This document shows, piece by piece, positions 6,859 through 62,551 of a DNA stretch of 64,000 nt. Origin of the DNA: a virus. Every line of letters starts with the position of its first letter. Position 1 is the stretch's first letter. The DNA lies in IMG/VR virus record IMGVR_UViG_3300008117_000001, one strand, 5' to 3'. Made by a program: the position numbers and the translations under genes. Below the pieces are notes generated by a model. The model had not been told where the DNA came from and ran no database searches. It saw nothing but the letters and a program-made list of their open reading frames with translations.

Positions 6859-8028
6859 ATGCCAATATATGGAATAAAAAATAAAGCTGATATATTAGTT
6901 AATGTTTTAAACGGCTTACAAAAAAACGCAGGCATATCTGCAGTCTACCCGGGCTCTATAGCTAGAGCGTTTGCGGAAGCTTTCACTAGTGAAGTTTCTG
7001 ATCTTTATGAGGCATTAAGATTCAACCTTACCCAAGGTGATCTAATGACAGCATCAGGTCGTAACCTTGACTTAATAGGCGATTTATATGGCATAACTAG
7101 AAGAAATATTAGCGATTATTCAAGTCAAGATCGTGAATCTTTTAATATTCAGTTTTTTATAGACAAGCCACATAGTTCCGATGTCACTATACCATCAGGG
7201 ACTTTAGTATATAATGATGTGTCTAATTTTATTACAAAACAATATACTTATAAGCTAGCTGGAGATGTAATTATAGGCAGAGGATCTACCAGAGCTTACG
7301 GAAGAGTTGACCCTAACTTTACGGACAACGCCTATGTGGCGCCCGTAAGTACGCTTACTAAACATAACGCATTTTCTCCCGCAGGAGTAATTATATTTTG
7401 CTCAAACCCCAAAGAAGTATATTCCAATACAAGCGCAGAGTCAGACACTAATTTTAGAAGAAGAATCATAGCTTCCATAAAGGCTAAGGCGCCTGGTACA
7501 GTTGAGTCTGTAAGATTTGCTGCTCTAGCGGTCAGAGGGGTCAGGGACGTTAGAATTAGAGAGGGCACGTATGGCGTTGGCTCCTGTGACGTAATAATCG
7601 TACCAGAAACAGCTACCGATATGTCTAATCTCCCTCAAAGAGTCATGGTTGCTGTAAGTGCAGTAAAGCCAATTGGTGTTAGATTTAATGTCAGAATTGC
7701 AGAAAGAGTTAGCATCAACATAGAGGCTACCATTACTTTGCCGATGGGCTTGAGCGAAAATCTGGCTAGCGGAGTCAGAAACCAAGCATCGCTCTTTGTG
7801 AAGAGATACTTGAATTCGCTTACTGTAGGCGATATGGTTTCTATGTCAGAGATTGAAAGACAAATTAAATTATCATCAGATTATATTCGCAGCTGCTATA
7901 TAAGCGCAATGCTTGCGGACGGCTCAAATATGCCACTCGTTGATTTTTCGTTAGATACAGTTAAAAAATATCCAGTAGCAGGCGCAATAAACATTAGTTC
8001 TGTTATAATGGGTGGAACAAATTATTAA
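6859..8028 (+). CDS. Baseplate J-like wedge protein
   Basis: TASGRNLDLIGDLYGITR, ESDTNFRRRI and AL.VRGVRDV...G.G.CDVII are characteristic baseplate-J segments. Confidence 0.85.
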   Translation: MPIYGIKNKADILVNVLNGLQKNAGISAVYPGSIARAFAEAFTSEVSDLYEALRFNLTQGDLMTASGRNLDLIGDLYGITRRNISDYSSQDRESFNIQFFIDKPHSSDVTIPSGTLVYNDVSNFITKQYTYKLAGDVIIGRGSTRAYGRVDPNFTDNAYVAPVSTLTKHNAFSPAGVIIFCSNPKEVYSNTSAESDTNFRRRIIASIKAKAPGTVESVRFAALAVRGVRDVRIREGTYGVGSCDVIIVPETATDMSNLPQRVMVAVSAVKPIGVRFNVRIAERVSINIEATITLPMGLSENLASGVRNQASLFVKRYLNSLTVGDMVSMSEIERQIKLSSDYIRSCYISAMLADGSNMPLVDFSLDTVKKYPVAGAINISSVIMGGTNY

Positions 8029-8053: not shown

Positions 8054-11000
8054 TTGATGAAGCAGTATTTGTTACTTTTAAAAAGTGGGGACTTCAATAA
8101 GTCTGGCAACACATGGACAAGTAGTGCTATAAACCTATACAAAAATAGCTCTTTCACCAATTATTCTTATGTCAGATCAAGGTATGGCCTCAATACAATA
8201 GGTGATAATACCTATGTTGGACTTGAGCTCACTTCCCCATCTTATAACGGCGACGTTGCAACGCCGCTATCAGACAATGCAGCATACGTAACAGATATCG
8301 GTGAAATCGTTTATGACGACGCCACACCATCTCTTTTGAGATTCATAGACACAACATCCAAGATAGACGTTCTAGCCTACAAGCATTTATTCACCAATCT
8401 TCCTGGAACAGAAGTCCCAACTTTTAATCTTCAGATGTATGAATCAGATTCGGAGGATGGTCCGTGGTTAAAGTCGATTCTGTCTTTTGATTCAAATGTC
8501 ATCTTTGTTAGGGACTGCAAACCTTGGATAAAAATAGAGTTAGAAATATTTACTGAAACTTTAGATACTAGCGATTTAGGTCTTTTATTTTATTTGGAAA
8601 TTGGTATACATGATCCAATTGCCCCTGTAGCGTCTGAACATGCAAGAAATATTCTAAAGAGATTCCCAACATGGACAGATATGTTTGCGGATTCGGAAAA
8701 TCCAGCAACTCCGTCCTTGTTTGTCCCCAGCTCTACCGCTGGAAAATTTTTAACAGCTCTTGTCCAAGAGTCTCTTGATAACTTTGATAACGAATTAAAC
8801 CTATATGACATCAACCACTATATATCAAGCGCAGATGAAAACATGCTGGCTTGGGCCTATGTGTCTTACGATGTTCCTGTTAATATCCTAAAGGTTTTAG
8901 GCGATGATGTTCCGTTAATACAGATGGATAGTCTAGCTTCTTTTTATAAGTCTCAATTGACTGATTATGTATATTATTACAGTCAGACGAATAAGCAAAT
9001 AATATGTATGCGAGAGTTTTCATCATTAACAATCAATGATGTTGAATATGATCAGTATCCCCTGCATGTTCCAAATAACTTTGATGAGTTCGGTGCAAAG
9101 GTAGGTCTTCCTAGACTTCTATTGGAGACTAATGCCAGATACAAAAAGAGAATTCTTGACGTAGCTTTAAACTATCCAGCAGCGCATATAGATGGATTCA
9201 AGAGAACAGTAAGAAGAGAGCTAGACATTTGGAAGGCCTACGGTGTTGAGCCAGATTCTAATTATATTGGAGCCACTCCGGATGTTATTGAAATTTCTGA
9301 CATGGAAAAAACAACTCCATGGTTCACTCCTTCTGGCAAACCTTTAAAGCCATTTGTTGATTTAATTGAAAGCATAAATGAAAGATACCCATCAAATATT
9401 GGCTATGTAAGATGGGAAGAAGGTTATTGGGATTACGGCGGAGCAGACGGAGAAGGAATATCTTCAATCCCTGCAATATACGATGTCGAAACTAGCGCAT
9501 CGCCACAATATTATCAACCAGGCGTTGGCGACTATGCTGACGCTAAATTAATACTGGAAGCAGAAGAAAAAGCTACAACATCTTTTTCTGGTTATGCATC
9601 CATTTCCGGTGTTTACATAGATGGGATTGAAGAGGTATATGCTCCGATAAAAGTTGATTACTCATGGTATCTTTCTTATTTAAAGAGAGTTCCAGATTAT
9701 GAGGCTGGAAGAAGAAAGTCTGGAGTCTCCCAAGATGTTGGAGTCGGCTTAACATATGAAATATCAATGGCTACGCACAATTTCTACGCCACACCATCTA
9801 CATTCTATGTTAATTTAAACTATCTAGATAGAGATGATTTCTATGTTGGAAATAGATTGCCACAAAATCATCCTGCTAGTCCAGAATATAATTTAATTAG
9901 AATATTCAATGATGACGGATACACGTTATCTTCTTTGCAGTTTAGAGATAAGACATATAACAATATCTACTACAATGCCTCTAGTTCTCCTAGTGTAAAC
10001 ACAATTAATTTTGATGATGTAGATTCTGTTAAAATAGTCTTTTCAAATGGAGGATGGAATCATATTACTCAGTCGTATGATAAGTCTTTGGCTACAGCAA
10101 ATTACCGCGTTGCTTTCACTAGATCTACTCCAAATACAACGTGGTATGCCAATCCATCTTATGGTCAGTCTGCAGAGTTGGCGTCACCAACTCAATTCTC
10201 TTACAGAGACGCTAGCATTAGAATAGGTTCGACAGTATATGAGACAAAAGTAGAAAGTTTTAATACACAAACAATTACTTCTTCTTTTTACTTGAATAAT
10301 AATAATGATTTAACTGAATCTGGCACCCAAAATTACTCTATGCAAATAGATAGTTTGGTAAATAGGTTGATTATTCCTCCGGAAGCAACACCGCAATATA
10401 TACATATTGATAACGTTAAACCTCTTGGTTTAACCTATTTTAATGGCGACACTTTGATAAGTGATATTTATGGTGGCGCAGTTATAAATCCAGACGATAA
10501 CGAAAGATACCTGGTTCCTTCCTCTCCAAATATAAGCTATAAAACATATAATTCTTCAAATGTAGAAATTTCTACGCCGGAATACTTTGATTCCGCTACA
10601 ATAAACTATAATGCAACCCCTTCATATTTTACTTTTGAGTCGGCAAGTAATAATTTTTATCCGATTTATTTTACAAAATACAGTTCATTTACATCTCAAA
10701 CTACTCCTCAGCTATTTAGTGGATACATAGATTCTCTGGAAAATGTTTATGAAAGTACAGATGAAGCAAACAATATATTCTTTAATTCAGATGATTTTCT
10801 AAAAAAGATATCTTTATCTAAAGATTCTTTTGGGTTAGATTCAGACACCACTTATATTGTCAAGGATGCACAGCTAATATCCGAAACACAATATATTGAT
10901 CCATATGTCAATAACAAAAATTCTTTGATTCTAGGTTTGACTAGCGCATTTGCAGACAACGAAAATGTTGATATTGATGTAAGAATTGCTAGAGATGCCC

Positions 11001-12652
11001 AAGATGTAGTTCAAAATAATCCAGCACTTCATACGGGTTGGTTATATTTAGATGAAAACGAATATTACATATACTCTAATCCTGTCACAGATTCTGCTAC
11101 AGGAAGATTCTTTTCTCTGCCACTCAGTCAGTATCCTAGATCTGGCTCACCGATAATGGTGACAGTTGGTGAAGAAAATTATAGAAATATTCTTTTCGAA
11201 GACGCAGCAACGCCGGGTAATATTGTATTTAATAATACAGAAGATATTTATGGCAATGTAAGCAATGCCATTTATCTAGCATATGAAAATGTTGAAAACA
11301 TTTCAGTTAAAGACTCATATACTGGAGTTGAGTTATTTAGCAATTTATCAACCTCTACAAATGAACTCAGCTGCTTCAGTGAGGCCACACCGTCGGTTTA
11401 TGGAAGAAAATACACCGTCAATTACGATGTAAAAAATGCCTGGTATGTTGATAAAAATGTATACGATGAGAATACTGATAGCTATAATTCAAATATCTAC
11501 TTTAGCTCCACTCCTAATGCAAGTGAAATCTACTCTATTACCTATGAGTCTTCGCTAAATGACAATACCTATTCCATAGATCTATCCTTAGTCCCATCTA
11601 CCAATCCTATAGATGAAGGATTCATTTATGTGTCAAAAACAGACTACCCATTTAGTTCCGCCAAAACATTATTGTCTCCTGCAAATATATCCAATTCACA
11701 AGATGACTTGATGTATCTAACTATAATATCTTACGATGAAAATAATAATTTCAAGCCTGGTCAAACCTTCCATGTTTATGGAGATATAGTTTCAGCTACA
11801 CCAGCTTATGTCACAACAAATGACAATGGAATAGGGAAAGCCATAATTAGATATTCGTATACCGGAGAAGAAGTATACGAGTCAAGCAATTTATATGTAT
11901 CTGGAATTGGTTCGGCAACTCCATATGGTGGCATAAATAGCCAGAGTCAAGGTTATGTGACATCAGTGCCATTTGGTGTAAATATATCAGATCCCAAGAT
12001 CCTAAGATTAAAAGCCGCTCCATCTTCTCTGATAATCAACGCCGGCTCAGATCAAGGTATCTCCATAGTGGGACAGGTGGTTTGGGATGATCAGCCTTGG
12101 CCCAAGGTACTGCCTGTTTCCTGGAATAAGGCTAGAACACTAAAAGATTTGTTTGCAGCAACACCAGACTATACAACGTATACTTCTTCGGATGGAAAAT
12201 TGGAAATAGCCAATATTGCAACTGCGCAAGACTCAGCGACTCCGGGATACTGGTTTGCTAGAGTAAATATTTCAAATGAAGAGTACGCTAAAAGCATTTT
12301 GTTGGCAGATCAAGAAATTAATGCAGGACAAGACGTTACTATATCTGGAGATGTTATTTATTGGTATGAATCCTATGATACAATTCAGTATGACCAAGAA
12401 TTAAGCCCACCCTTACCCAATATTTATACTTCAAATAAACAGCAAGGTTCAGAAATCATAGCAACTCCTAACTTTGTTTATAAGCATAGCGATTCAAATA
12501 CTATTGTTTATAGTAGCGCAACTCCGAATTGGAGTCCGCCAAGATGGGTGCCGTTAAGAAAGTATGACCAATATCAAATGGGAATTTTTGGCTCAACACC
12601 AAACCATATATCTGATTATGAGTTAGTTCACCCGGATCATGAGGAACAATGA
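8054..12652 (+). CDS. Very large baseplate wedge/tail structural protein (1532 aa) with 15 Ala-Thr-Pro motifs
   Basis: Follows baseplate J. FDEFGAKVGLPRL..ETNARYKKRI resembles the wedge (gpI-like) motif. C-terminal VTTNDNGIGKAIIRY suggests an Ig-like (Big_1) strand pattern. Confidence 0.6.
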   Translation: MMKQYLLLLKSGDFNKSGNTWTSSAINLYKNSSFTNYSYVRSRYGLNTIGDNTYVGLELTSPSYNGDVATPLSDNAAYVTDIGEIVYDDATPSLLRFIDTTSKIDVLAYKHLFTNLPGTEVPTFNLQMYESDSEDGPWLKSILSFDSNVIFVRDCKPWIKIELEIFTETLDTSDLGLLFYLEIGIHDPIAPVASEHARNILKRFPTWTDMFADSENPATPSLFVPSSTAGKFLTALVQESLDNFDNELNLYDINHYISSADENMLAWAYVSYDVPVNILKVLGDDVPLIQMDSLASFYKSQLTDYVYYYSQTNKQIICMREFSSLTINDVEYDQYPLHVPNNFDEFGAKVGLPRLLLETNARYKKRILDVALNYPAAHIDGFKRTVRRELDIWKAYGVEPDSNYIGATPDVIEISDMEKTTPWFTPSGKPLKPFVDLIESINERYPSNIGYVRWEEGYWDYGGADGEGISSIPAIYDVETSASPQYYQPGVGDYADAKLILEAEEKATTSFSGYASISGVYIDGIEEVYAPIKVDYSWYLSYLKRVPDYEAGRRKSGVSQDVGVGLTYEISMATHNFYATPSTFYVNLNYLDRDDFYVGNRLPQNHPASPEYNLIRIFNDDGYTLSSLQFRDKTYNNIYYNASSSPSVNTINFDDVDSVKIVFSNGGWNHITQSYDKSLATANYRVAFTRSTPNTTWYANPSYGQSAELASPTQFSYRDASIRIGSTVYETKVESFNTQTITSSFYLNNNNDLTESGTQNYSMQIDSLVNRLIIPPEATPQYIHIDNVKPLGLTYFNGDTLISDIYGGAVINPDDNERYLVPSSPNISYKTYNSSNVEISTPEYFDSATINYNATPSYFTFESASNNFYPIYFTKYSSFTSQTTPQLFSGYIDSLENVYESTDEANNIFFNSDDFLKKISLSKDSFGLDSDTTYIVKDAQLISETQYIDPYVNNKNSLILGLTSAFADNENVDIDVRIARDAQDVVQNNPALHTGWLYLDENEYYIYSNPVTDSATGRFFSLPLSQYPRSGSPIMVTVGEENYRNILFEDAATPGNIVFNNTEDIYGNVSNAIYLAYENVENISVKDSYTGVELFSNLSTSTNELSCFSEATPSVYGRKYTVNYDVKNAWYVDKNVYDENTDSYNSNIYFSSTPNASEIYSITYESSLNDNTYSIDLSLVPSTNPIDEGFIYVSKTDYPFSSAKTLLSPANISNSQDDLMYLTIISYDENNNFKPGQTFHVYGDIVSATPAYVTTNDNGIGKAIIRYSYTGEEVYESSNLYVSGIGSATPYGGINSQSQGYVTSVPFGVNISDPKILRLKAAPSSLIINAGSDQGISIVGQVVWDDQPWPKVLPVSWNKARTLKDLFAATPDYTTYTSSDGKLEIANIATAQDSATPGYWFARVNISNEEYAKSILLADQEINAGQDVTISGDVIYWYESYDTIQYDQELSPPLPNIYTSNKQQGSEIIATPNFVYKHSDSNTIVYSSATPNWSPPRWVPLRKYDQYQMGIFGSTPNHISDYELVHPDHEEQ

Positions 12653-21229: not shown

Positions 21230-23386
21230 ATGACACAATTATCAGCAAGCACAATGCCATACCAGCAAATGGTTCACAAAGTGGGCCAATTGATTACCGC
21301 AATAAATTCTGCTTCTCTTATTACAAAAGATGAAATAGCAGAACAGTATATAAATATATTAAATGAAATTAAGAATCAAATAGGTGCACCTTTAGCTTCC
21401 TATTCTCCCTTTATTAAAGGTGAGCCTCCCAGGTCTGAAAAGTTTAACAAATTCTTTGCAGAGTACGCCCAAGATGTCTCTGTATTATCGAAGCAAATTG
21501 ACTACCTTAATGCCAAAACAATAAGTGTATTTAATTTATTTTCCAAAGAAATCGAAGGAGAAAAAAGATACTCAGAAAGAATAGCATCAAAGTGCAAGAT
21601 TTTGCAAATGTATTCTCGTAGCCCATCTGATGATTTAATATATATCGGTGATTCATTTGAAAATGATGACCTTATCGACTACACAAAAATAGCAAAAGGA
21701 TCCAATCCATTAATCAGAGGAGGGATTGCATCATTCGCAATAGAATCCTCTAAAAGATGGGTGCCCGATGCAATAGAGGTGGTATCGGGAAATGGGTTCA
21801 TAGGAAATAGCCACCAAGTGGTTAAGGCTAATAATGATGAAAATACTTCAGAATATAAATACGTTTTTGAAAACAATAAAACATTAAATAACTTAAGAAG
21901 CATAGTCGACAATAACCCTCTTTCCTATTTTGAGTACGAAAATATTAATGTTGATAAATCAACAGCAAGACCACCATTAACGACCATTGCACAAGAGAAC
22001 GAATTTAAGTTCCTAAAAACAGAAATGAATAGCTCAAATGCGAACGAGTCAAATACGATAGATTGGTCATCTCATCCGGAATCAGAACCGTTAACTCTTA
22101 AGTTAAAGTTAACATCAAATTCTGGCAGGATTGCAAATAGTATTGACATAACTCCATTTTTTGGGTCATCTAAGTACGTAGAAGTTACAGAAGTTTTAGT
22201 TTTTGCTAAAGATGGATCATCTGAAAATGTTTTAAAGAATACCATTTTTATAGGTTCATCTTTAGTTCCGTTGAATATTGAGTTAGCGCAAAATTATTTT
22301 TACAATAAAGCGACAGTACGTTTTCCCGAAAGACAAGTTTCTAAAATAGAGATATCCTTTAGGCAACCCACATATTCTAATATTGATATTAAGCATGTTT
22401 ATTGGAAGCCAAGTTCTACAAATGTGAATAATCCATTTGTTAATCTATCTAGATTTAACCCAGACGCTCTAAGTAGGGATATATATGAGTCAATTAAGTA
22501 TAATAAATATCAATTAATTCCAACTTTATCCAATCCAACCAAATATAAAACTACTACGCAAAATGTCGCTGACATTAATGTTGCCCTAAAAAAGAAGCCA
22601 ACTTCTCTGAATGCTTATTTTATAGCAGCTTCTTTTGTAAATGAATCAGCAACTCCTGTTAATTCAACTGTTTATTTCAATAGATGGAAAGTTGTTGGTG
22701 AAGAGGCTGAATTTATTTCTGAAATAATAAAAGACGAAGACAGCTATATTACCAAGAACTACGATGCACCATCAGCTGCTCAAGAAGATTTAAACGATTT
22801 ACTTGACTTATACTTTGGCGCTACCCCATATGTGGATGAAGAACTTGGCACTCTGCAGGATATATCAATTGTGCAGCAGTCATTTGTTCCTATTCAAAAA
22901 GAAATTTCTTATAGAGTTATAGTTGAGCAAGAAGAGGAATTCTACAAGGCAAAGAGATGGGCCATAGGAATTAGGGATATTGACGTTTATCGGGAAACAT
23001 ACATAGATGAAATGCAGGTCATATCTTTCCCGTTTAAATTTGATTACCCGGTTGAATCAGTGATGCTGGATGTCCAGGCGTCTATAGATGAAGTGCATTC
23101 TGGAAGAACTAATATTCAAACATACATATCAGCAGATCAAGGTTCTAATTGGATAGAGGTTTCTCCGGTTCAACTAGATTTTACCGGCACCCCTGAAATA
23201 GTATTTTTTAACCAATCAATACTTGATGAGTACAGATTGTCTGGAGCGTCATACTTATCTTTCCCCATAATTCCAAAAGAAGTTAAAGATATCACTGTTA
23301 AAATAGTTGCACAGAAAAAGGGTGCGTATAACTTTACGCCAAATATATATTCATATCAATTAATAGCTAAGGTAAAACGGTCATGA
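21230..23386 (+). CDS. Virion structural protein (paralogue family)
   Basis: GEPPRSEKFN...QDVSVL N-terminus, ISFPF...VESVMLDV...YISADQGSNWIEVSP and C-terminal TPNIYSYQL. Confidence 0.55.
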   Translation: MTQLSASTMPYQQMVHKVGQLITAINSASLITKDEIAEQYINILNEIKNQIGAPLASYSPFIKGEPPRSEKFNKFFAEYAQDVSVLSKQIDYLNAKTISVFNLFSKEIEGEKRYSERIASKCKILQMYSRSPSDDLIYIGDSFENDDLIDYTKIAKGSNPLIRGGIASFAIESSKRWVPDAIEVVSGNGFIGNSHQVVKANNDENTSEYKYVFENNKTLNNLRSIVDNNPLSYFEYENINVDKSTARPPLTTIAQENEFKFLKTEMNSSNANESNTIDWSSHPESEPLTLKLKLTSNSGRIANSIDITPFFGSSKYVEVTEVLVFAKDGSSENVLKNTIFIGSSLVPLNIELAQNYFYNKATVRFPERQVSKIEISFRQPTYSNIDIKHVYWKPSSTNVNNPFVNLSRFNPDALSRDIYESIKYNKYQLIPTLSNPTKYKTTTQNVADINVALKKKPTSLNAYFIAASFVNESATPVNSTVYFNRWKVVGEEAEFISEIIKDEDSYITKNYDAPSAAQEDLNDLLDLYFGATPYVDEELGTLQDISIVQQSFVPIQKEISYRVIVEQEEEFYKAKRWAIGIRDIDVYRETYIDEMQVISFPFKFDYPVESVMLDVQASIDEVHSGRTNIQTYISADQGSNWIEVSPVQLDFTGTPEIVFFNQSILDEYRLSGASYLSFPIIPKEVKDITVKIVAQKKGAYNFTPNIYSYQLIAKVKRS

Positions 23387-33321: not shown

Positions 33322-33571
33322 AAAGTTAACTTTTTTGTTGGTAATGTTTGCTATTGGCTCCGTCATTGGCAAGTCTCATTCTAGAAAAAAGCTCATAGAA
33401 AAAATTAATGAACCAAATATTGGGCAATATCTAAATAGATTAATTGAATTTTACGATTCAAATACAATAGATATAGTTGAGGATGAGTTCCTTAATTTAG
33501 TCGATTTTGGTATGAGTCCCAAAAACGCCTTCAGTGCAATCACAAATATTGAAAGAGTAAACAATGATTGA
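33302..33571 (+). CDS. Hypothetical protein with N-terminal TM segment (start approximate)
   Basis: LTFLLVMFAIGSVIG hydrophobic stretch; fills the gap before the GT2 gene. Confidence 0.5.
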   Translation: MNMKNGEKLTFLLVMFAIGSVIGKSHSRKKLIEKINEPNIGQYLNRLIEFYDSNTIDIVEDEFLNLVDFGMSPKNAFSAITNIERVNND

Positions 33572-34355
33572 TTTATGTGTAGTTAACTATAATACAAGAC
33601 CATTATTGAATAGGTTTTTAGACTGCCTTCATAATGATCTTCATAACCATCCTAGAGTTTGGAATCTTTACATTGCAGATAATGATTCTACGGACGATAG
33701 TGTAGACTGGCTAAAGTATAATTATCAAAGATATAGAATTAGGAAATTCTATCAAAACTATAATATTGGTTACTCCGCCGCATGCAATCAGTTAGCAGCT
33801 GAGGGTTCATCTGACATTATCTGCTTACTGAACGCTGACGTATGGATGGATAATGAAAACTTGGTTAAAGTAGCAAATATTTTTGATGAGAATCCAGATA
33901 TTCATATTCTAGGTCCTAAACAGAGAGACGAAAACGGTCTCATCACGCATGCCGGTATTATTGGCACCAATACGGCACCAAAGCATCGTGGCTGGCGTCA
34001 AAGCGATTTTAATGATGAATTATATAGAGATAGAATTAATTGCGTTACAGTATCTGGATCTGCATATTTTATTCGTCGTGAAGTATGGAATGCACTGACA
34101 AATCATCCAAAGTATCGAGAAATGTATCCTGATGCAACTGGCGCATTCCTTCCTACACCGCATTATTATGAAGAAACCTGGTGCTCTTACTTTGCTAGAC
34201 ATCTAGGTTATAACGTAGTCTATGATGGAAGCGTTTCTATTGGTCATAGCTGGCACAAATCATCTGCCGTAGGCGGAGAGGCTGATTCCAAATTCAAAGA
34301 AAGTCAATCAATATTTCGTAAAGCTTGCGACTATATGGGAATAGAAAGAGATTAA
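33564..34355 (+). CDS. GT2 glycosyltransferase (WbbL/rhamnosyltransferase-like)
   Basis: DLCVVNYNT, IADNDSTDDS, NIGYSAACN, LLNADV (DxD equivalent), VSGSAYFIRREVW and YYEET. Confidence 0.85.
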   Translation: MIDLCVVNYNTRPLLNRFLDCLHNDLHNHPRVWNLYIADNDSTDDSVDWLKYNYQRYRIRKFYQNYNIGYSAACNQLAAEGSSDIICLLNADVWMDNENLVKVANIFDENPDIHILGPKQRDENGLITHAGIIGTNTAPKHRGWRQSDFNDELYRDRINCVTVSGSAYFIRREVWNALTNHPKYREMYPDATGAFLPTPHYYEETWCSYFARHLGYNVVYDGSVSIGHSWHKSSAVGGEADSKFKESQSIFRKACDYMGIERD

Positions 34356-34356
34356 T

Positions 34357-35244
34357 TTGCCACTAAAGACATATGGCTCATTATTTTCTGGTGTTGGTGG
34401 TATAGATTTAGGGTTAGATTCCGCTAAATTAGAGTGTGCATTTCAGGTTGAAATAGATGAAAACTGTCAACAAACTCTAAAATATCATTGGCCTCATGTT
34501 GCACTTTATGGAGACATAAAAAATATTAAAGGCTATGAATTGCCATTCGTTGATCTAATTGCCTTCGGTTCGCCATGTCAAGATCTATCTACTGCGGGAG
34601 GGAAAAGCGGTCTGCTTGGCAGTAAGTCAGTCTTATTCTATGAAGCTGTTAGGGTAATAAAAGAAATGAGAGAAAAATCAAATGGAGAATATCCAAAATG
34701 GACAATCTGGGAAAATGTCACAGGATCCCTGTCATCTAACTCAGGCTCAGATTTCAAGCAAGTTCTCTGGCAAATGGATGAAGCAGGGGCGCTTTTCAGC
34801 GAATGGGCAGTTTTGGATGCTAGATACTTTGGAGTGCCCCAGCGACGTAGAAGAATCTATTTGCTCTCTGTCTTTGATCCTGCAATCGCGGGAAGATGTC
34901 CTGATAAAATATTACCTATCAAAGAAAGCAGCTCAGGGAATCTTGCGAAGAATACTAAGGGAAAACAAGACGATGCCACAGAACTTGCTAGCTGCCTTAG
35001 AAGCGGTGGCCAAGGAGGAATCCCCTCAAGTAGAGGGGAAAATCTAGTATTAGAGGAGTCCTTACAAAAAGTACGTAGATTAACACCTCTTGAGTGCGAA
35101 AGACTTATGGGCTGGAACGATAACCATACAATTTATAGAGCGGACGGAAAAGAGAATTCAGATAACGCAAGATATAAAATGTGTGGCAACGGTGCAGTTA
35201 GCCCAGTTATAAAATGGATAGCAGAAAAAATAATTAACATATAA
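34357..35244 (+). CDS. DNA (cytosine-5)-methyltransferase
   Basis: SLFSGVGGIDLG (I), GSPCQDLS (IV), WENV (VI), PQRRRRIY (VIII), RRLTPLECERLMG (IX) and YKMCGNG (X). Confidence 0.92.
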   Translation: MPLKTYGSLFSGVGGIDLGLDSAKLECAFQVEIDENCQQTLKYHWPHVALYGDIKNIKGYELPFVDLIAFGSPCQDLSTAGGKSGLLGSKSVLFYEAVRVIKEMREKSNGEYPKWTIWENVTGSLSSNSGSDFKQVLWQMDEAGALFSEWAVLDARYFGVPQRRRRIYLLSVFDPAIAGRCPDKILPIKESSSGNLAKNTKGKQDDATELASCLRSGGQGGIPSSRGENLVLEESLQKVRRLTPLECERLMGWNDNHTIYRADGKENSDNARYKMCGNGAVSPVIKWIAEKIINI

Positions 35245-35257
35245 AAAAGGAATTGAT

Positions 35258-35656
35258 ATGAAAGATAAATTAAACCCCTGGATTTACAATGCAGAGGTCA
35301 AGAAGACAATTGATGGTGATACCTTCGATATTGTTATTGATCTTGGTTTTGATGTTTTGAAGAAAGGTAGAGTTCGCCTTTATGGAGTTAATACTCCAGA
35401 GAGTCGCACTTCCAATATTGAAGAAAAGAAAATGGGCTTAGCCGCAAAAGAATTTACTGATCAATGGTTGACAGCTGCAAATCATAAGGTTAAGATAGAA
35501 ACTATCATTGACAAGAACGAAAAGTATGGAAGAGTTCTAGCAAAAGTATGGAATGAAGCCGGAGAGTGTCTCAATGATGCTATAATAGCTTCTGGTCTAG
35601 CCAGAGAATACTTTGGTGTAGGCGACAAAACATTTACTGAATTCAAAAAGGATTAA
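35258..35656 (+). CDS. Thermonuclease (SNase-like) nuclease
   Basis: IDGDTFDIVIDLGF...RVRLYGVNTPE...EKYGRVLA...LNDAIIASGLA. Confidence 0.88.
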   Translation: MKDKLNPWIYNAEVKKTIDGDTFDIVIDLGFDVLKKGRVRLYGVNTPESRTSNIEEKKMGLAAKEFTDQWLTAANHKVKIETIIDKNEKYGRVLAKVWNEAGECLNDAIIASGLAREYFGVGDKTFTEFKKD

Positions 35657-35657
35657 A

Positions 35658-36471: not shown

Positions 36472-36485
36472 CGAAAGGTAATACA

Positions 36486-36680
36486 ATGTCAGATAATAAG
36501 TTGAAGTATTTCACAGTAACAGCAACCTCAATCGTCAAGGCTAATAATAAGACCGAGGCGGAAAAGCTTGCAATGTCGACTGGTCGTCGTCCAGTTGGAG
36601 TTGCTGGAGAGGTAATCTTCAAGGACGTTGAGATCGAGCGCATTTCGGCTGTTGAGGCCCACGATCAGCTCGTCGGCTGA
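36486..36680 (+). CDS. Small hypothetical protein with host-like (GC-richer) codon usage
   Basis: GAAAGG RBS; codons such as ATC, GAC, GAG, CGC and GTC contrast with AT-rich neighbours; strong hairpin downstream. Confidence 0.7.
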   Translation: MSDNKLKYFTVTATSIVKANNKTEAEKLAMSTGRRPVGVAGEVIFKDVEIERISAVEAHDQLVG

Positions 36681-36706
36681 GTAGTTCAGCAAACGTATTT
36701 GTTTAT

Positions 36707-37462: not shown

Positions 37463-38104
37463 ATGACTTGTCTAAATCCAGCTGAATCAATAACTAATCT
37501 AACTTTAGCGTTAGAAAAACACAAAAAGTTTTCTTATATTAATGTAACTAAGTCTGCAATTATTGCACTTAGTAAGAATTCTGATAACTCTTTTCCATCT
37601 CATTTTGCAAAAAGCGTCATAGCTTCATTGAAGAACAACGATCCGATGATGATGAAGGCTATATCTCACTCGTTAGTTTCTGATATAGAAGATGGAAAGC
37701 ATTATAAGATAGGCCTACATAAGAATGGTACATATTACTATTCAAATATTTTTGAATATTATTATATGAACAATAAAGATGTTTATAATTCAACCGTGAA
37801 TTATTACATAAAAAACTCACCAAGTGTTGTAATCACTTTCCATGATAAAAAGCTAATACAAAAACATTTTGGCAATAGTGCCCACATAATCAACGTTGCA
37901 TATACAAACTATTACGAAAAGCTAGATAACATATATGCCCAGTTGACAGAGTTTGAAGGCGGAGTAGATTACTGCATCATGGATTGCGGAGTGCTTGGTT
38001 TGGCGCTTGCTTCCAAAATTTGGGATAATCTAAATATGTCAATATTAGATTTTGGCAAAACATTAAGTTTGAGCAAGACTCCTCAAACAGTAAGTGTGGC
38101 ATGA
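37463..38104 (+). CDS. Possible GT-D-fold glycosyltransferase-like protein
   Basis: C-terminal DYCIMDCGVLGLALASKIW...SILDFG resembles the GT-D/DUF1792-like C-terminus; adjacent to a GT2 gene. Confidence 0.45.
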   Translation: MTCLNPAESITNLTLALEKHKKFSYINVTKSAIIALSKNSDNSFPSHFAKSVIASLKNNDPMMMKAISHSLVSDIEDGKHYKIGLHKNGTYYYSNIFEYYYMNNKDVYNSTVNYYIKNSPSVVITFHDKKLIQKHFGNSAHIINVAYTNYYEKLDNIYAQLTEFEGGVDYCIMDCGVLGLALASKIWDNLNMSILDFGKTLSLSKTPQTVSVA

Positions 38105-58932: not shown

Positions 58933-59673
58933 ATGAATAATCCAGAAGTGTCAGTTGTATTAACTAGCTATAATAAGCCAAGCTATTTAGAAAAAGCAAT
59001 ACATTCAGTCATTCAGCAAACCTACGATAATATTCATTTAATTATTGCAGAAGACAATTCCCCAAACACAAAAGTCATGGATGTAATTCGTGATGTTGTT
59101 GATAATTATCGTGGAGATAAAAGAATAACATTCTTTAATTCATTTATCAAAGAGCAAGATAGGTTAAATACCGCCAGATATGCTACTCAGATAAACACCG
59201 CAGTTCGTTTATATTCAAGATCAAAATACATTTGCTATTTGGCGGACGATGACTTTTATTATCCTGAGATGATTGAGAAAATGGTTTTTTCAGCGGAAAA
59301 AAATAAACATGATGTTGTCTTCTGCGCACAACACATCCTAGATGCAGATGGCAATATTGATGGCTGGGGATTAGATGGTAGAGGCGTTAGATGGTTTAGT
59401 TCACCTTTGGAAAGAGGCGCTGATAAGTTAGACCATAATCAAGTCATGACAACTAGAAGAGTGTTTGATTTAGTAGACGGATGGGACGATCACCCGCACG
59501 CCTGGTCCGGCGCTGATGCATACTTCTTTGATAGAATAGAAAAAAATGGATTCTTATTTCATCCAATAGATTATGATAAACCTTTGCAGGGGAAAGTTTA
59601 TAGGGAAAAGTCAGTGCAGTGGAACTGCACAAACGGTTTCATGCCGACAATGGGAGAAGATAGAAATGTCTAA
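58933..59673 (+). CDS. GT2 glycosyltransferase (SpsA-like)
   Basis: VSVVLTSYNKPSYLEKAIHSVIQQTY..IHLIIAEDNS, YICYLADDDFYYP and ADAYFF. Confidence 0.88.
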   Translation: MNNPEVSVVLTSYNKPSYLEKAIHSVIQQTYDNIHLIIAEDNSPNTKVMDVIRDVVDNYRGDKRITFFNSFIKEQDRLNTARYATQINTAVRLYSRSKYICYLADDDFYYPEMIEKMVFSAEKNKHDVVFCAQHILDADGNIDGWGLDGRGVRWFSSPLERGADKLDHNQVMTTRRVFDLVDGWDDHPHAWSGADAYFFDRIEKNGFLFHPIDYDKPLQGKVYREKSVQWNCTNGFMPTMGEDRNV

Positions 59674-60541
59674 TGTATGGGCAGTTGGAATGGCAAGAGA
59701 TGAGGGTGATATCATATATCACACCATGATTCATCTCGCTGCAAATAAAGTAAACGGAATTATTATTGCAGATAATTTATCCAAAGATAATACCTGGGAA
59801 CAAATGAATCTAGCCAAGGAGCACATACAATCGCATGGATGCGATACTCAAGTTGTTCTTTTAAAAGATGATGTTGTCGGATATACTCAAAGTGAAAAGA
59901 TGACCGCTCTAGCGCAAAGAGCTAGAGAAAATGGTGCACAGTGGATTATTCCTTTTGATATAGATGAAATTTGGTTTTCGCCAAATCAAACTCTTTCTGA
60001 TGCCTTCAGTCAACTAGATGCCGAAAACGTTGACGTATATAGAACGTTATACACAAATCATTCCGTAACAGAATATGACACCCCAGGGAAATCGCCATTT
60101 CATTCAATGCAATATAAATGGGATCTCCCAACAAACCATAAGAGCTGCTTTAGGTTTAGAAAAAACGATGCTTTTGTCAAGATTTCAAATGGAAATCATT
60201 TTGTTCAACATAACGGTGGGAATATTGGCGCTAATGTCAACGTTTACATTGACGATTATGGTCATGATCGGATTGTTTTTGGTCCACAGATTCTTGCCAT
60301 TAGACATTTCCAGTGGAGATCTCTTGATCATTTTATTAAAAAAGTGACGAATGCCTATGAAGCGTGTAAAGCTCTTCCTAGCAATCATGATTTATATAAA
60401 GGTGCTGCATGGTGGCAAGAGTTTGAAGAATTCGAAGCAAATGGCGTACCTGGCTTAGAAAAAATGTATTACAAAAATATTTTAGTACAGGGAGATTTGG
60501 GCAGATTGATACATGACCCAGCCCCAATAATGGAGTTGTGA
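59666..60541 (+). CDS. GT2 glycosyltransferase (Glyco_tranf_2_4-like)
   Basis: MARDEGDII, IIIADNLSKDNT, WIIPFDIDEIW and IRHFQWRS. Start taken as the ATG at 59666. Confidence 0.82.
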   Translation: MSNVWAVGMARDEGDIIYHTMIHLAANKVNGIIIADNLSKDNTWEQMNLAKEHIQSHGCDTQVVLLKDDVVGYTQSEKMTALAQRARENGAQWIIPFDIDEIWFSPNQTLSDAFSQLDAENVDVYRTLYTNHSVTEYDTPGKSPFHSMQYKWDLPTNHKSCFRFRKNDAFVKISNGNHFVQHNGGNIGANVNVYIDDYGHDRIVFGPQILAIRHFQWRSLDHFIKKVTNAYEACKALPSNHDLYKGAAWWQEFEEFEANGVPGLEKMYYKNILVQGDLGRLIHDPAPIMEL

Positions 60542-61197
60542 TGAATAAAGTTTCTTTGATAATAATAACTGACGGCAGACAAGCATGTATTTCTGAAACA
60601 ATACCGTCCATGCGTAAAAATTTAAACTATAATTTTTATGAGAAAATAATAATTAATGATTCAGCAGATCTTAGATATCATCAATATTTAATGTCTAATT
60701 ATCCAGATTTTCGTATAGTTTCACATGAAACTAGAAGAGGTTTGGCTGGAGCAGTACAGTCAGCATGGACTTCCGTTTCTCGTGATTCAGATTATATTTT
60801 TCATTTAGAAGATGACTTCTTGTTTAATCAGGAAATCAGTATTGAAAATCTTATATCACTTCTTGAATCTAATCCTAATCTTGTTCAAATGGCTTTGGTG
60901 CGCGCTCCGGTTAATCCGCCCGAAGAAGAGGTGGGCGGATTTGTCTTTCAACACTTAGAAGACTACACTCAAAAGGATGGCTTTTTTGAACATGGTAGAT
61001 TGTTTACTTTAAATCCTTGTTTGTATCCAATGTCTACCGTAAGAATGGGGTGGCCAGATCATGGTGGCGAATCTGAATTCACTTCAAAAGTTCACTCGTT
61101 AAATGACAGTTATAGATTTGGTTTTTATGGAGAAATATATGATAAGCCATATGTGACGCATATTGGTGGAAGAAGAAGTGAAGGATGGTTCCTATAA
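60538..61197 (+). CDS. GT2-like glycosyltransferase
   Basis: IIINDSAD, RRGLAGAVQSAW, YIFHLEDDFLF, FTLNPCLY and HIGGRRS. Confidence 0.78.
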   Translation: MMNKVSLIIITDGRQACISETIPSMRKNLNYNFYEKIIINDSADLRYHQYLMSNYPDFRIVSHETRRGLAGAVQSAWTSVSRDSDYIFHLEDDFLFNQEISIENLISLLESNPNLVQMALVRAPVNPPEEEVGGFVFQHLEDYTQKDGFFEHGRLFTLNPCLYPMSTVRMGWPDHGGESEFTSKVHSLNDSYRFGFYGEIYDKPYVTHIGGRRSEGWFL

Positions 61198-61908
61198 ATG
61201 CAAAAAGAAATTATAGTAAATAAAAATAATATTTCCTTTAAAGTAGAAGACAGCAAAGAGCTCCATCAAGATGTTGGTTATAATTTTTGGTCAGAAAAAT
61301 ATTCTTCTTGGGAGAATAGCACTTTTCAAGTATTAGATAAGTATTTATCAAAAGATAAAGATTATTTAGATATAGGCTCATGGGTTGGACCAACGGCAAT
61401 CTACGCTTCATTTCTAAGCAGAAGAGTATTTGCCGTAGAGCCAGACCCTACCGCCTATAAGATCCTGCAAAAAAATATTTCCTTAAACTCAATTACCAAT
61501 ATAATTCACTTTAACGCCGCTGCTTCAAATTTACAAACAGCTTACCTCAAACCAAATAGGTTCTTTGGAGATTCAATGACAAGAGTCTCAGAGAATGCAT
61601 CTTCGGGTATTGCTGTTAAAGCAATGGGTCTAGATGAGTTAATTTCGCTTGGAGATTTTTCTTTAATAAAAATTGATATTGAGGGACACGAGTTTCAACT
61701 AATCAAAGAATACATAAAAGTTTTAAACCAAGCAAAGATACCATTATTTTTATCTCTGCACACTCCCTTTTTTAATAATGGCGAATCCTTACTTAAAGAA
61801 CTCACGCAAAATCTTGCTAATACAAAACAGGTATTTGATGAGCAGGGTAGAAAAATAAGCTTAGAACAAATAGACAGTAGTTTTGGAAGTTATTTATTTT
61901 TGTGGTAG
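61198..61908 (+). CDS. FkbM-family SAM-dependent methyltransferase
   Basis: YLDIGSWVGPT, VFAVEPDP, FNAAAS and LIKIDIEGHE. Confidence 0.88.
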   Translation: MQKEIIVNKNNISFKVEDSKELHQDVGYNFWSEKYSSWENSTFQVLDKYLSKDKDYLDIGSWVGPTAIYASFLSRRVFAVEPDPTAYKILQKNISLNSITNIIHFNAAASNLQTAYLKPNRFFGDSMTRVSENASSGIAVKAMGLDELISLGDFSLIKIDIEGHEFQLIKEYIKVLNQAKIPLFLSLHTPFFNNGESLLKELTQNLANTKQVFDEQGRKISLEQIDSSFGSYLFLW

Positions 61909-61912
61909 TTTT

Positions 61913-62551
61913 ATGGATTTAATAATCATTGGAGCGGGCGGACATGCTGTTGACCTGACCTATCTATCTGAAAATGATAAATATATTAAATGGAACATTA
62001 TAGGTTATCTAGATGATGATCCGGTAAATAGGTATAGCGACAAGACGATAGGGCCGGTTTCATCGCTGAGCGTTTATTTAAATAAATATAAAAATTTAAA
62101 ATATTGTATTGCCATTAACTCCTCAATAATAAGAAAAAAAATAGACTTACTCTATGGAGACGATGAAAAGTCAGCTAATTTGATCCATGAGACAGCTTTA
62201 ATAGGTAGCGAGTGCTCATATGGTAATGGCATTACTATGGGGCCATATTCTTTATTAACAACAAATGTTAAGATAGGCAAGCATGTCCATATTAATTCTG
62301 CAGCGTCGATTAATCAATCTAGCTTTATAGGAGACTACTGCACGGTAAGTCCCGGCGTTAGGGTTTGTGGGGATGTTAAAGTTGGCGACACCACTTCTAT
62401 AGGGGCTGGCGCAGTGATTATTAATTTCAAATCAATAGGAAGAGAATGTACACTGGGCGCTGGCACTGTAGTCATAGATAATATAAGCGATCATACAACT
62501 GTAGTCGGAGTGCCCGGTAGGGAAATAAAGAAGTTTGGCGAATATATTTAA
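61913..62551 (+). CDS. NeuD/PglB-type sugar O-/N-acetyltransferase (hexapeptide repeat)
   Basis: LIIIGAGGHA, IIGYLDDD, IAI...IRKKI, LIHETALIG, left-handed beta-helix hexapeptides and VVGVPGR. Confidence 0.88.
   Translation: MDLIIIGAGGHAVDLTYLSENDKYIKWNIIGYLDDDPVNRYSDKTIGPVSSLSVYLNKYKNLKYCIAINSSIIRKKIDLLYGDDEKSANLIHETALIGSECSYGNGITMGPYSLLTTNVKIGKHVHINSAASINQSSFIGDYCTVSPGVRVCGDVKVGDTTSIGAGAVIINFKSIGRECTLGAGTVVIDNISDHTTVVGVPGREIKKFGEYI

What the first reader, a model, noticed from the sequence alone, without database searches (positions are those of the whole stretch)
8258..12526. Fifteen dispersed Ala-Thr-Pro tripeptides in one baseplate protein: candidate modification sequon of a phage virion-glycosylation system
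Seen: the 1532-aa protein contains ATP 15 times (VATPL, DATPS, PATPS, GATPD, YATPS, EATPQ, NATPS, AATPG, EATPS, SATPA, SATPY, AATPD, SATPG, IATPN, SATPN), plus 4 STP and 3 ASP. A rough composition-based expectation for ATP is under one. The codons differ (e.g. GCA ACG CCG, GCC ACA CCA, GCT ACA CCA, GCG ACT CCG) and the flanks are unrelated, so this is selection on the peptide, not a DNA repeat. Two more occur in 21230 (SATPV, GATPY). Established: some mycobacteriophages (e.g. Che8) glycosylate their own virion proteins using encoded glycosyltransferases, and actinobacterial O-glycosylation favours Thr/Ser next to Pro. Inference: A-T-P is an acceptor sequon for this phage's five GT2 enzymes plus methyl/acetyl tailoring enzymes, giving a glycan-decorated baseplate. 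Alternatives are a Pro-directed phosphorylation site, a protease site or a chaperone/partner docking motif.
Basis: partly seen in the sequence, partly recalled or inferred. Interest (0 to 1): 0.85.

Follow-up and report, generated by a model that had tools for sequence, protein, structure and literature searches.

The report
Ala-Thr-Pro tag on phage baseplate
A giant baseplate protein of an uncultured, roughly 190-kb water phage carries 15 scattered copies of the three-residue tag Ala-Thr-Pro; relatives that have lost two particular phage sugar-transferase genes have also lost the tag, so it is most likely a sugar-attachment signal, though no chemistry has been done.

Summary
The 1531/1532-aa protein (8054/8057-12652) has 15 ATP against 0.35 expected (Poisson P about 7e-20). 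ATP is the only outlier tripeptide, and no other window ORF is clearly enriched. All of about 250 large homologues examined carry 5-21 ATP, except six that carry 0-1.

Sites lie in coil, mostly just before beta-strands, in unrelated domains with no internal repeats. The six ATP-less proteins nest inside ATP-rich clades, so the motif was lost as a block at least twice. This argues for a trans-acting reader and against a purely structural motif.

In the one ATP-less phage with enough contig, the syntenic interval lacks two soluble GT2 genes (window 33564-34355 and 36758-37450). Its ATP-rich sister and every ATP-rich lineage tested have both. At former sites Thr falls to 4%, while Ala and Pro stay near 40%.

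The best reading is a Thr O-glycosylation sequon read by these two GT2 enzymes (confidence 0.6).

This scan had already noted the motif on other DNA (13 notes in at least 11 genomes, four with follow-ups found). No chemistry exists.

The parts
8054..12652 (+). Gene for the ATP-rich baseplate-periphery protein (1532 aa from TTG 8054; probable true start ATG 8057, 1531 aa). Residues about 185-545 are the conserved core shared with short gpI-like wedge proteins. The C-terminal half is a string of Ig-like beta-sandwiches.
   Evidence: ORF. It lies directly after a gp6/Baseplate_J-like wedge gene (phrog_6). PHROG 21059 virion structural protein. More than 200 homologues. AF2 models with pLDDT 81 and 74; Foldseek matches to invasin, intimin and complement MG domains.
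8258..8266 (+). ATP site 1 (res 69-71, VATPL). STP is as common as ATP here in relatives.
8321..8329 (+). ATP site 2 (res 90-92, DATPS). ATP in 55 of 73 aligned homologues; hairpin loop before a strand.
8705..8713 (+). ATP site 3 (res 218-220, PATPS). Thr and Pro are invariant in alignment A1 (23 sequences); the column reads ATP 62, STP 10, TTP 1 of 73.
9272..9280 (+). ATP site 4 (res 407-409, GATPD). ATP in 60 of 73. This is the one site often still present in ATP-less relatives.
9788..9796 (+). ATP site 5 (res 579-581, YATPS). Immediately precedes a beta-strand.
10385..10393 (+). ATP site 6 (res 778-780, EATPQ). ATP 43 and STP 11 of 73.
10613..10621 (+). ATP site 7 (res 854-856, NATPS). Hairpin loop.
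11207..11215 (+). ATP site 8 (res 1052-1054, AATPG). ATP in 59-60 of 73.
11384..11392 (+). ATP site 9 (res 1111-1113, EATPS). ATP in 51 of 73; long loop.
11795..11803 (+). ATP site 10 (res 1248-1250, SATPA).
11915..11923 (+). ATP site 11 (res 1288-1290, SATPY). ATP 30 and STP 15 of 73.
12158..12166 (+). ATP site 12 (res 1369-1371, AATPD). Lies between a helix and a strand.
12236..12244 (+). ATP site 13 (res 1395-1397, SATPG). Directly before a strand.
12461..12469 (+). ATP site 14 (res 1470-1472, IATPN). ATP 44 and STP 10 of 73; low-confidence C-terminal tail of the model.
12518..12526 (+). ATP site 15 (res 1489-1491, SATPN).
33564..34355 (+). GT2a: soluble family-2 glycosyltransferase (263 aa). 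Candidate reader or writer of the motif.
   Evidence: Pfam PF00535, E 1.5e-15. No TM segment. 60-91% identical in 26 of 27 related records and in 6 of 6 that are at least 90% complete. 55-59% in distant ATP-rich lineages and 49% in the P0138 phage. Absent from the ATP-less P0173 phage interval.
36758..37450 (+). GT2b: soluble family-2 glycosyltransferase (230 aa). Second candidate enzyme.
   Evidence: Pfam PF00535/PF13704. Best solved relative is the GT domain of GmaR, the Listeria flagellin O-GlcNAc transferase, E 6.6e-8 (PMC9638930). Present in 25 of 27 records and 6 of 6 near-complete ones. 52-58% identical in distant ATP-rich lineages and 54% in the P0138 phage. Absent from the ATP-less interval.
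37463..38104 (+). GT-D-like protein (213 aa). Possibly a lineage-specific extension enzyme; it does not travel with the motif everywhere.
   Evidence: Pfam PF22882, E 9.7e-8. 44-46% identical in G004 and G006. No match in G029-G033 or in the P0138 phage.
21230..23386 (+). 718-aa virion structural protein with two ATP (SATPV, GATPY). A possible minor carrier of the same tag.
   Evidence: The G002 orthologue also has two ATP, at residues 474 and 531.
58933..62551 (+). Accessory island: GT2, GT2_4, GT2, FkbM-type methyltransferase and PglD-like acetyltransferase. The ATP motif does not require it. It might elaborate a glycan in this strain or serve something else.
   Evidence: Pfam. No homologue in G002, G004 or G006, although the flanking genes 58048 and 62814 are present in G002.

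Best explanation
A-T-P, read loosely as [A/S/T]-[T/S]-P in this clade, is a short acceptor signal on loops of a peripheral baseplate protein built largely of Ig-like domains. A few other virion proteins carry it in smaller numbers. The Thr, or sometimes Ser, is O-glycosylated in the infected cell's cytoplasm before or during assembly, by two soluble phage family-2 glycosyltransferases. These are GT2a (33564-34355) and GT2b (36758-37450). One probably starts the glycan on the hydroxyl and the other extends it. Lineage-specific enzymes may decorate it further: the GT-D-like gene here, a third GT2 plus a methyltransferase in a soil relative, and possibly the island at 58.9-62.6 kb. Shown here: the enrichment, its conservation, its loop position, its loss as a block, and the co-loss of GT2a and GT2b. 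Inferred: that Thr is modified, that the modification is a sugar, and what the sugar does. The likeliest role is shielding or tuning the surface of the baseplate arm.
For: (1) Enrichment is about 40-fold and specific. There are 15 ATP against 0.35 expected. ATP is the only outlier tripeptide and its permutations are absent. Equally large neighbouring virion proteins have 0-1.
(2) It is family-wide. There are 6-20 ATP in 105 homologues, 5-20 in 152 IMG/VR loci and 7-21 in nearly all of 87 deep representatives. About 10 columns are kept in at least 43 of 73 sequences. ATP interchanges with STP, TTP, ASP and SSP, so a hydroxyl and the Pro are kept.
(3) It is not inherited from repeats. hhalign finds no similarity between 12 segments of the protein. 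Flanks are nearly unconstrained.
(4) All sites are in coil, mostly 0-3 residues before a beta-strand.
(5) Block loss occurs. Six large homologues have 0-1 ATP and chance-level loose motifs. They nest within ATP-rich clades and starred branches force at least 2 losses.
(6) A matched pair was compared. The ATP-less P0173 phage is syntenic with the window over about 52 kb but has no GT2a, GT2b or any recorded GT Pfam hit between dCMP deaminase and DnaB. Its ATP-rich sister P0138 has 12 ATP and is 44-52% identical. It has GT2a (49%) and GT2b (54%) in that same interval.
(7) GT2a is in 26 of 27 and GT2b in 25 of 27 related records, and both are in 6 of 6 near-complete ones. The misses sit at contig ends. 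Both are also in five distant ATP-rich lineages.
(8) At 8 conserved ATP columns, ATP-less proteins keep A at 36% and P at 40% but T at only 4%. ATP-rich proteins keep 71%, 81% and 73%. Thr is therefore the residue whose constraint depends on the lost function.
(9) GT2a and GT2b have no TM segment. GT2b's best solved relative is a protein O-GlcNAc transferase.
(10) No ThyA-type hydroxymethylase occurs in five near-complete genomes, and the adjacent C5 methylase is not conserved. This argues against the usual DNA-glycosylation role for these GTs.
Against: No chemistry exists, so no sugar has been shown. The co-loss rests on one ATP-less lineage, and only about 52 kb of its genome could be read. 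Glycosyltransferases could lie elsewhere in it, and other genes could have been lost too. The other ATP-less lineages sit on contigs too short to check. GT2a and GT2b are core genes of the clade and sit among DNA-metabolism genes, so their universal presence alone does not discriminate. A phage with a 45%-identical GT2a homologue (GX15bay) shows no ATP enrichment. The similarity to GmaR covers only the N-terminal nucleotide-binding half of the fold. Only one protein is heavily tagged. Other virion proteins are enriched just about 2.7-fold, which is odd for a general surface shield. Solvent exposure could not be computed.
Confidence: 0.6

Rival explanations
1. A-T-P is a docking motif. A protein partner binds the many A-T-P loops without covalent modification. 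The partner could be another virion component, an assembly chaperone or a prolyl isomerase. Loss of that partner explains the block loss, and the loss of the GT genes is coincidental or secondary.
For: The block loss shows that a trans-acting reader exists but not what kind it is. Only one protein is heavily tagged, as expected for a dedicated partner. Only about 52 kb of the ATP-less genome was seen, so other losses are possible.
Against: No candidate partner gene is missing from the roughly 52-kb syntenic block, where the differences seen between the RNR gene and DnaB are the GT genes, small ORFs and mobile nucleases. A three-residue motif with free flanks is very short for protein-protein recognition but typical of enzyme sequons. 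Thr is replaced only by Ser at kept sites and disappears selectively after loss, which points to the hydroxyl.
Confidence: 0.15
2. A-T-P is a purely structural element, a loop-to-strand cap with a small residue, a beta-branched hydroxyl residue and Pro. This fold family favours it, and nothing reads it.
For: Sites sit 0-3 residues before beta-strands, with aromatic residues at +2 and +4. Most sites are ancient and positionally conserved; strictly lineage-specific ATP is only about 2.5 times expectation. Ala and Pro partly persist in ATP-less relatives.
Against: Equally beta-rich neighbouring virion proteins have none. There is no repeat homology between the domains that carry it. Homologues with the same architecture and about 45% identity lose Thr at essentially all sites at once, at least twice independently. 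Independent structural caps should not behave like this.
Confidence: 0.1
3. The Pro, not the Thr, is modified. A phage 2OG/Fe(II) prolyl-4-hydroxylase-like enzyme hydroxylates it, with or without later glycosylation of the hydroxyproline. This would resemble Skp1 or plant [A/S/T]-Pro glycomodules (my knowledge, not tested here).
For: P4H-like PF13640 genes occur in 4 of 5 related large genomes, up to 7 copies. Pro is the most invariant motif position.
Against: The complete, terminally redundant genome G004 has no PF13640 match, yet its homologue has 8 ATP and 19 [AS]TP. Copy number varies from 0 to 7 and so does not track the motif. After loss of the system Thr is randomised while Pro is partly kept, the opposite of what is expected if Pro were the target.
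Confidence: 0.05
4. The sites are Pro-directed phosphorylation sites or protease sites.
For: S/T-P is the minimal motif of Pro-directed kinases (general knowledge).
Against: No kinase or dedicated protease turned up in the Pfam scan of window ORFs or in the interval that differs between ATP-rich and ATP-less phages. Fifteen cleavage sites in a structural protein is implausible. The strong preference for Ala at -1 has no parallel in these systems.
Confidence: 0.03

Closest known systems
Virion O-glycosylation of mycobacteriophages by phage-encoded glycosyltransferases (Freeman et al. 2023, Cell Host Microbe; known to me through the summary and citation in PMC12619734; the paper itself is not held)
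   Same: A tailed phage encodes its own soluble glycosyltransferases, which are thought to decorate its own virion proteins in the cytoplasm. The proposed role is a surface shield.
   Different: In that system the glycans sit on C-terminal stretches of capsid and tail-tube subunits (PMC12619734). Here a discrete three-residue signal is scattered through folded Ig-like domains of a baseplate protein. The phage lineage is unrelated: about 36% G+C, DnaE-type replication, aquatic and soil metagenomes. The case here is comparative only, with no mass spectrometry.
GmaR of Listeria monocytogenes, the flagellin O-GlcNAc transferase (PDB 22ao; PMC9638930)
   Same: It is the best solved sequence relative of GT2b (E 6.6e-8). 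It has a cytoplasmic GT-A/GT2-type domain that transfers a sugar directly to Ser/Thr of a folded structural protein.
   Different: The match covers only about 100 N-terminal residues. GmaR has TPR and anti-repressor domains that GT2b lacks. No A-T-P sequon is described for flagellin.
Mucin-type polypeptide GalNAc-transferases (GT27, GT-A fold); my knowledge, not tested here
   Same: They are GT-A enzymes that glycosylate Thr in preference to Ser, and Pro near the acceptor (+1/+3) favours them. This is similar in spirit to [A/S]-T-P.
   Different: They are eukaryotic, act in the Golgi lumen, carry lectin domains and have loose preferences with no strict sequon. No sequence relationship was shown here.
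Bacterial sequon-directed glycosylation: N-X-S/T (PglB; cytoplasmic HMW1C/NGT) and the Bacteroidota O-glycosylation motif D-(S/T)-(A/I/L/V/M/T); my knowledge
   Same: A minimal three-residue sequon is scattered over many sites in folded proteins.
   Different: The motif, the enzymes (oligosaccharyltransferases or GT41) and, for most of them, the compartment (periplasm) all differ. None of them uses A-T-P.

Membership tests
Glycosyltransferase family 2 (GT-A fold), for GT2a and GT2b | Match to Pfam Glycos_transf_2 above the curated cut-off | tested here: met
   GT2a scores 58.0 bits against a cut-off of 23.3. GT2b scores 38.8 bits, and 31.5 bits on PF13704.
Glycosyltransferase family 2 (GT-A fold), for GT2a and GT2b | Acidic DXD-type metal/nucleotide-sugar motif | tested here: inconclusive
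   GT2b has DCD at residue 88 and DSD at 188. GT2a has only DND at 39, the early acidic motif. No structure or alignment to characterised enzymes was made.
Direct cytoplasmic protein O-glycosyltransferases (GmaR-like; mycobacteriophage virion GTs) | Soluble enzyme with no membrane anchor, so it can meet virion proteins in the cytoplasm | tested here: met
   The highest 19-residue Kyte-Doolittle mean is 0.92 for GT2a and 0.74 for GT2b.
Direct cytoplasmic protein O-glycosyltransferases (GmaR-like; mycobacteriophage virion GTs) | Demonstrated transfer of a sugar to Ser/Thr of the protein substrate | not testable with these tools
   This needs mass spectrometry or an enzyme assay.
Protein modification sequon (enzyme-read short motif) | Motif enriched far above composition, at the peptide level and not the DNA level | tested here: met
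   15 ATP against 0.35 expected, with varied codons.
Protein modification sequon (enzyme-read short motif) | Motif present in unrelated structural contexts, so not inherited with a repeat | tested here: met
   hhalign of 12 segments gives no inter-segment match beyond overlaps. Conserved ATP sites also occur in unrelated virion proteins of G002, G004 and G006.
Protein modification sequon (enzyme-read short motif) | Presence of the motif co-varies with presence of the enzyme across genomes | tested here: met
   One ATP-less lineage lacks GT2a and GT2b at the syntenic place, and its ATP-rich sister has both. All ATP-rich lineages tested have both. This rests on a single negative lineage and partial genomes.
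Protein modification sequon (enzyme-read short motif) | Sites are solvent-exposed | tested here: inconclusive
   All sites are in coil in the AF2 models. No coordinates were available, so accessibility could not be computed.
T4-type DNA glycosylation (alternative role for the GTs) | A hydroxymethyl-pyrimidine pathway (ThyA-family dCMP/dUMP hydroxymethylase) that provides the acceptor | tested here: not met
   PF00303 is absent from five genomes that are 92-100% complete; the control search matched 10 of 14 reference genomes. The C5 methylase beside GT2a is absent from G004 and G006. TET/JBP-type routes were not searched.

The most novel reading that the evidence does not exclude
A strict three-residue O-glycosylation sequon (Ala-Thr-Pro) is read by a dedicated pair of soluble phage GT2 enzymes. 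The system is conserved across a large, uncultured, world-wide group of 150-270-kb aquatic and soil phages and has been discarded as a unit in some lineages. It would be the first defined sequon for cytoplasmic protein O-glycosylation in the bacterial/phage world, and a portable tag-plus-enzyme pair for glyco-engineering.
Probability: 0.45. Interest if true: 0.85.

Novelty: new variant of a known kind. Interest (0 to 1): 0.72.

Why it matters
Phage virion glycosylation has so far been documented in mycobacteriophages, and without a simple sequon. A minimal, position-independent Thr sequon with its two cognate soluble enzymes would give three things. It would make phage surface glycosylation predictable from sequence in metagenomes. 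It would provide a natural experiment, ATP-rich against ATP-less sister phages, on what a baseplate glycan coat does for adsorption, host range or protection from defences. It would offer a compact tag-and-enzyme pair for site-directed O-glycosylation of recombinant proteins in bacterial cytoplasm. It also shows that block loss of a short motif can be used as a comparative test for trans-acting readers.

Tried and rejected
(a) DNA repeat or compositional artefact: rejected, because codons vary and shuffles give at most 4 ATP.
(b) Internal domain repeats carrying the motif: rejected by hhalign.
(c) The island at 58.9-62.6 kb (GT, methyltransferase, acetyltransferase) as the required enzyme set: rejected, because it is absent from G002, G004 and G006.
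(d) The GT-D-like gene as a universal partner: rejected, because it is absent from G029-G033 and from the P0138 phage.
(f) Search for ATP-less homologues within the close family: none among 105 proteins and 152 IMG/VR loci. They appeared only in the exhaustive representative search.
(g) IMG/VR scan for the ATP-less lineages: only ATP-rich relatives were found.
(h) genome search and the fetch from genomes cannot reach Logan or ENA contigs. I therefore walked along the contigs gene by gene, which used all 12 look-ups.
(i) The other ATP-less lineages (P0143, P0158, P0175, P0181, P0182) are on contigs that end before the GT interval, so they remain untested.
(j) Cultured relatives: only remote Bacillus and Moorella jumbo phages. 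Their short homologue has no ATP (KLEB27-3 checked), and no cultured phage has GT2b.
(k) GX15bay has a 45% GT2a homologue but no ATP enrichment (7 against 4.2), so it is uninformative or mildly negative.
(l) Foldseek of the N-terminal half found no significant fold match.
(m) Literature searches found no description of an A-T-P sequon in phages. Freeman et al. 2023 is not held.

Full report
THE OBSERVATION.
- The ORF at 8054-12652 (+) gives 1532 aa from a TTG. The next codon is ATG (8057) and all homologues start MKQYLL, so the protein is probably 1531 aa.
The first site is at nt 8258 and the last ends at 12526. Codons are mixed.
- Composition predicts 0.35 occurrences (Poisson P about 7e-20), and 20,000 shuffles never gave more than 4.
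- ATP is the only outlier among all tripeptides. The next ones, TPS, SAT and TPN, are its own overlaps.
- The five permutations of A, T and P occur 0-1 times. 15 of 22 TP follow Ala.
- Of 54 window ORFs only this one is enriched. The 718-aa protein at 21230 has two ATP and the Pro-rich ORF at 62814 has one.

WHAT THE PROTEIN IS.
- It follows a gp6/Baseplate_J-like wedge gene (6859-8028, phrog_6) and matches a PHROG of virion structural proteins.
- Its residues about 185-545 are a conserved core shared with about 500-aa proteins that follow Baseplate_J in Bacillus and Moorella jumbo phages.
- An AlphaFold2 model of residues 760-1532 (pLDDT 81) is a chain of Ig-like beta-sandwiches. Foldseek matches invasin, intimin and complement MG domains, E down to 1e-7.
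- The N-terminal half (pLDDT 74) has no significant solved match.
- The phage has about 36% G+C and DnaE-type replication. It belongs to a group of uncultured phages on contigs of 150-270 kb from lakes, sea and soil.

THE MOTIF ACROSS RELATIVES.
- Every one of 105 homologues (30-99% identity) has 6-20 ATP against about 0.3 expected.
- In 152 IMG/VR loci the homologue has 5-20 ATP and 9-34 [AST][TS]P.
- In the first 80 of these loci, the equally large neighbouring hub and fibre-region proteins have 0-2 ATP and 0-6 of the loose motif, which is chance level.
- In a 73-sequence alignment about ten ATP columns are kept in at least 43 sequences. Thr219/Pro220 and Thr1153/Pro1154 are invariant. Variation runs almost only among ATP, STP, TTP, ASP and SSP.
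- Flanks are nearly free, with only weak N/S/D/G at +1 and Tyr at +2 and +4.
- Twelve segments of the protein show no profile-profile similarity to one another. The motif was therefore not copied with a repeat domain.
- In both models every site is in coil, usually 0-3 residues before a beta-strand.
- Strictly lineage-specific ATP sites are only about 2.5 times expectation. Most sites are old and maintained, not constantly re-invented.
- Across three whole relatives (G002, G004, G006) ATP totals 27-30 per proteome against about 12 expected. About a third to a half of these (8-13) lie in this one protein.
- In G002 and G004 the remaining virion-gene block is about 2.7-fold enriched and the non-structural genes are not.
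- A few small virion proteins keep ATP at the same positions in all three genomes. One is a 260-aa protein with three sites. Another is a neighbour of the sheath gene that ends ...ATPNx.

THE DECISIVE PATTERN.
- An exhaustive HMMER search with the core found 212 relatives.
- The 87 with E <= 1e-30 are nearly all large, and nearly all have 7-21 ATP.
- Six large homologues have 0-1 ATP and a chance-level loose motif: P0143, P0158, P0173, P0175, P0181 and P0182.
- On a quick maximum-likelihood tree these six nest inside ATP-rich clades. P0175 is sister to two proteins with 11 ATP each (support 100). The others share a clade (support 98) with proteins of 10-13 ATP. Well-supported branches force at least two losses.
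- A dozen or more independent loop motifs vanishing together, more than once, is hard to reconcile with a purely structural role. It is the signature of a shared trans-acting reader.

WHICH READER.
- I walked along the contigs of one ATP-less phage (P0173; about 52 kb from hub to endonuclease I) and of its ATP-rich sister (P0138; 12 ATP; proteins 44-52% identical). Both are collinear with the window.
- In the sister, the interval between dCMP deaminase and DnaB holds GT2a (49% identical to window 33564-34355), GT2b (54% to 36758-37450), a third GT2 and a methyltransferase.
- In the ATP-less phage the same interval keeps the flanking genes. The homologue of ORF 38101 is 54% identical and DnaB is 49%.
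- That interval holds no glycosyltransferase, by recorded Pfam hits or by tblastn at E <= 1e-3. Nor does the next 10 kb.
- In the window's own clade GT2a is found in 26 of 27 records, GT2b in 25 of 27, and both in 6 of 6 records at least 90% complete. The misses sit where the contig ends.
- Five distant ATP-rich lineages (13-18 ATP) also have both genes, adjacent to each other.
- The GT-D-like gene (37463) is absent from those lineages and from the P0138 phage.
- The window's island at 58933-62551 holds three GT2, an FkbM methyltransferase and a PglD-like acetyltransferase. It has no counterpart even in G002, whose baseplate protein is 87% identical with 13 ATP.

WHICH RESIDUE.
- At eight ATP columns conserved among ATP-rich members of that clade, the ATP-less proteins keep Ala in 36% of cells and Pro in 40%. 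They keep Thr in only 4%, and Thr or Ser in 8.5%.
- The ATP-rich figures are 71% for Ala, 81% for Pro and 73% for Thr.
- Ala and Pro seem to retain some structural value in the loop. Thr was held only by the lost function. This fits Thr as the acceptor.

THE ENZYMES.
- GT2a and GT2b are single-domain proteins with no membrane segment.
- GT2b's best solved relative is the glycosyltransferase domain of GmaR, which adds GlcNAc to Listeria flagellin (PMC9638930). The match is only to the N-terminal half of the fold.
- Both genes lie among DNA-metabolism genes (ThyX, dCMP deaminase, a C5 methylase, DenV-like and SNase-like genes, DnaB). A DNA-sugar role therefore had to be considered.
- No ThyA-family hydroxymethylase exists in five near-complete genomes, and the adjacent methylase is not conserved. 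The usual DNA route therefore has no support.

RIVALS.
- A non-covalent docking partner remains possible (0.15), because only part of the ATP-less genome was seen.
- A purely structural cap (0.10) conflicts with the block loss and with the absence of the motif from neighbouring proteins.
- Proline hydroxylation (0.05) conflicts with the complete genome G004, which has no P4H-like gene but an ATP-rich homologue. It also conflicts with the selective decay of Thr.

LIMITS.
- There is no chemistry.
- There is one informative negative lineage, and its genome is partial.
- The tree is a quick search and not a finished one.
- Solvent exposure was not computed.

EARLIER NOTES AND NOVELTY.
- Earlier notes of this scan report the same motif in at least 11 other genomes and reach the same reading.
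- I treated them as leads and reproduced the block loss and the co-loss of the glycosyltransferases independently. I added a matched sister control and the Thr-specific decay.
- I found no published description of an A-T-P sequon.
- Verdict: a real, strongly selected short motif, most likely an O-glycosylation sequon served by GT2a and GT2b. It is a new variant of phage virion glycosylation and awaits mass spectrometry.

Noticed in passing
window 8054-8059: The listed ORF starts at TTG 8054, but the next codon is ATG and all homologues begin MKQYLL. The real start is probably 8057.
   Followed up: partly
window 58933-62551: A five-gene island (GT2, GT2_4, GT2, FkbM methyltransferase, PglD-like acetyltransferase) is absent from the 87%-related genome G002, although the flanking genes 58048 and 62814 are present there. 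It looks like a recently gained sugar-modification cassette. Its target (glycan elaboration, host envelope or something else) is unknown.
   Followed up: partly
window 62814-63983: A 389-aa ORF with no Pfam match is rich in Thr-Pro (13 TP against 5.5 expected, including GNATPPPKA). The G002 counterpart is longer (521 aa).
   Followed up: no
window 15880-18624: A 914-aa protein in the fibre/baseplate block has an N-terminal about 60 residues that match endolysin PHROGs. Orthologous big neighbours in soil relatives carry PG_binding_1 and faint SLH hits. It may be a virion-borne wall-binding or lytic module.
   Followed up: no
window 33564-38757: GT2a and GT2b are embedded among DNA-repair and nucleotide genes: a C5 cytosine methylase at 34357, an SNase-like gene at 35258, a DenV-like pyrimidine-dimer glycosylase at 35658 and a deoxyribosyltransferase-like gene at 36067. 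The methylase and the deoxyribosyltransferase-like gene come and go between relatives.
   Followed up: partly
G002:C1:32411-33193 (L085:12411-13193); orthologues G004 108839-109615, G006 23632-24414: A 258-260-aa protein with no Pfam or PHROG match keeps three ATP sites at the same positions (about 44, 112, 232) in three genomes. The baseplate proteins of G004 and G006 are only about 37-38% identical to the window's. It is a second strongly tagged virion-block protein, outside this window.
   Followed up: partly
G002-G006 (whole records): P4H-like 2OG/Fe(II) oxygenase genes (PF13640) vary from 0 copies (G004) to 7 (G005) among related phages. This is a highly variable accessory family of unknown target.
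   Followed up: partly
L209/L210/L219 (ATP-less phage), interval between RNR and DnaB: Where the glycosyltransferase genes are missing, the interval carries Endonuclease VII, HNH_3 and LAGLIDADG homing-type nucleases and a D12 adenine methylase. Mobile nucleases may have driven the gene replacement.
   Followed up: no
P0138 versus the window's clade: In the soil-type ATP-rich relatives the motif is strict: P0138 has 12 ATP and no other [AST][TS]P. In the window's aquatic clade about half of the sites are S/T variants. This suggests different acceptor stringency of the enzymes.
   Followed up: no
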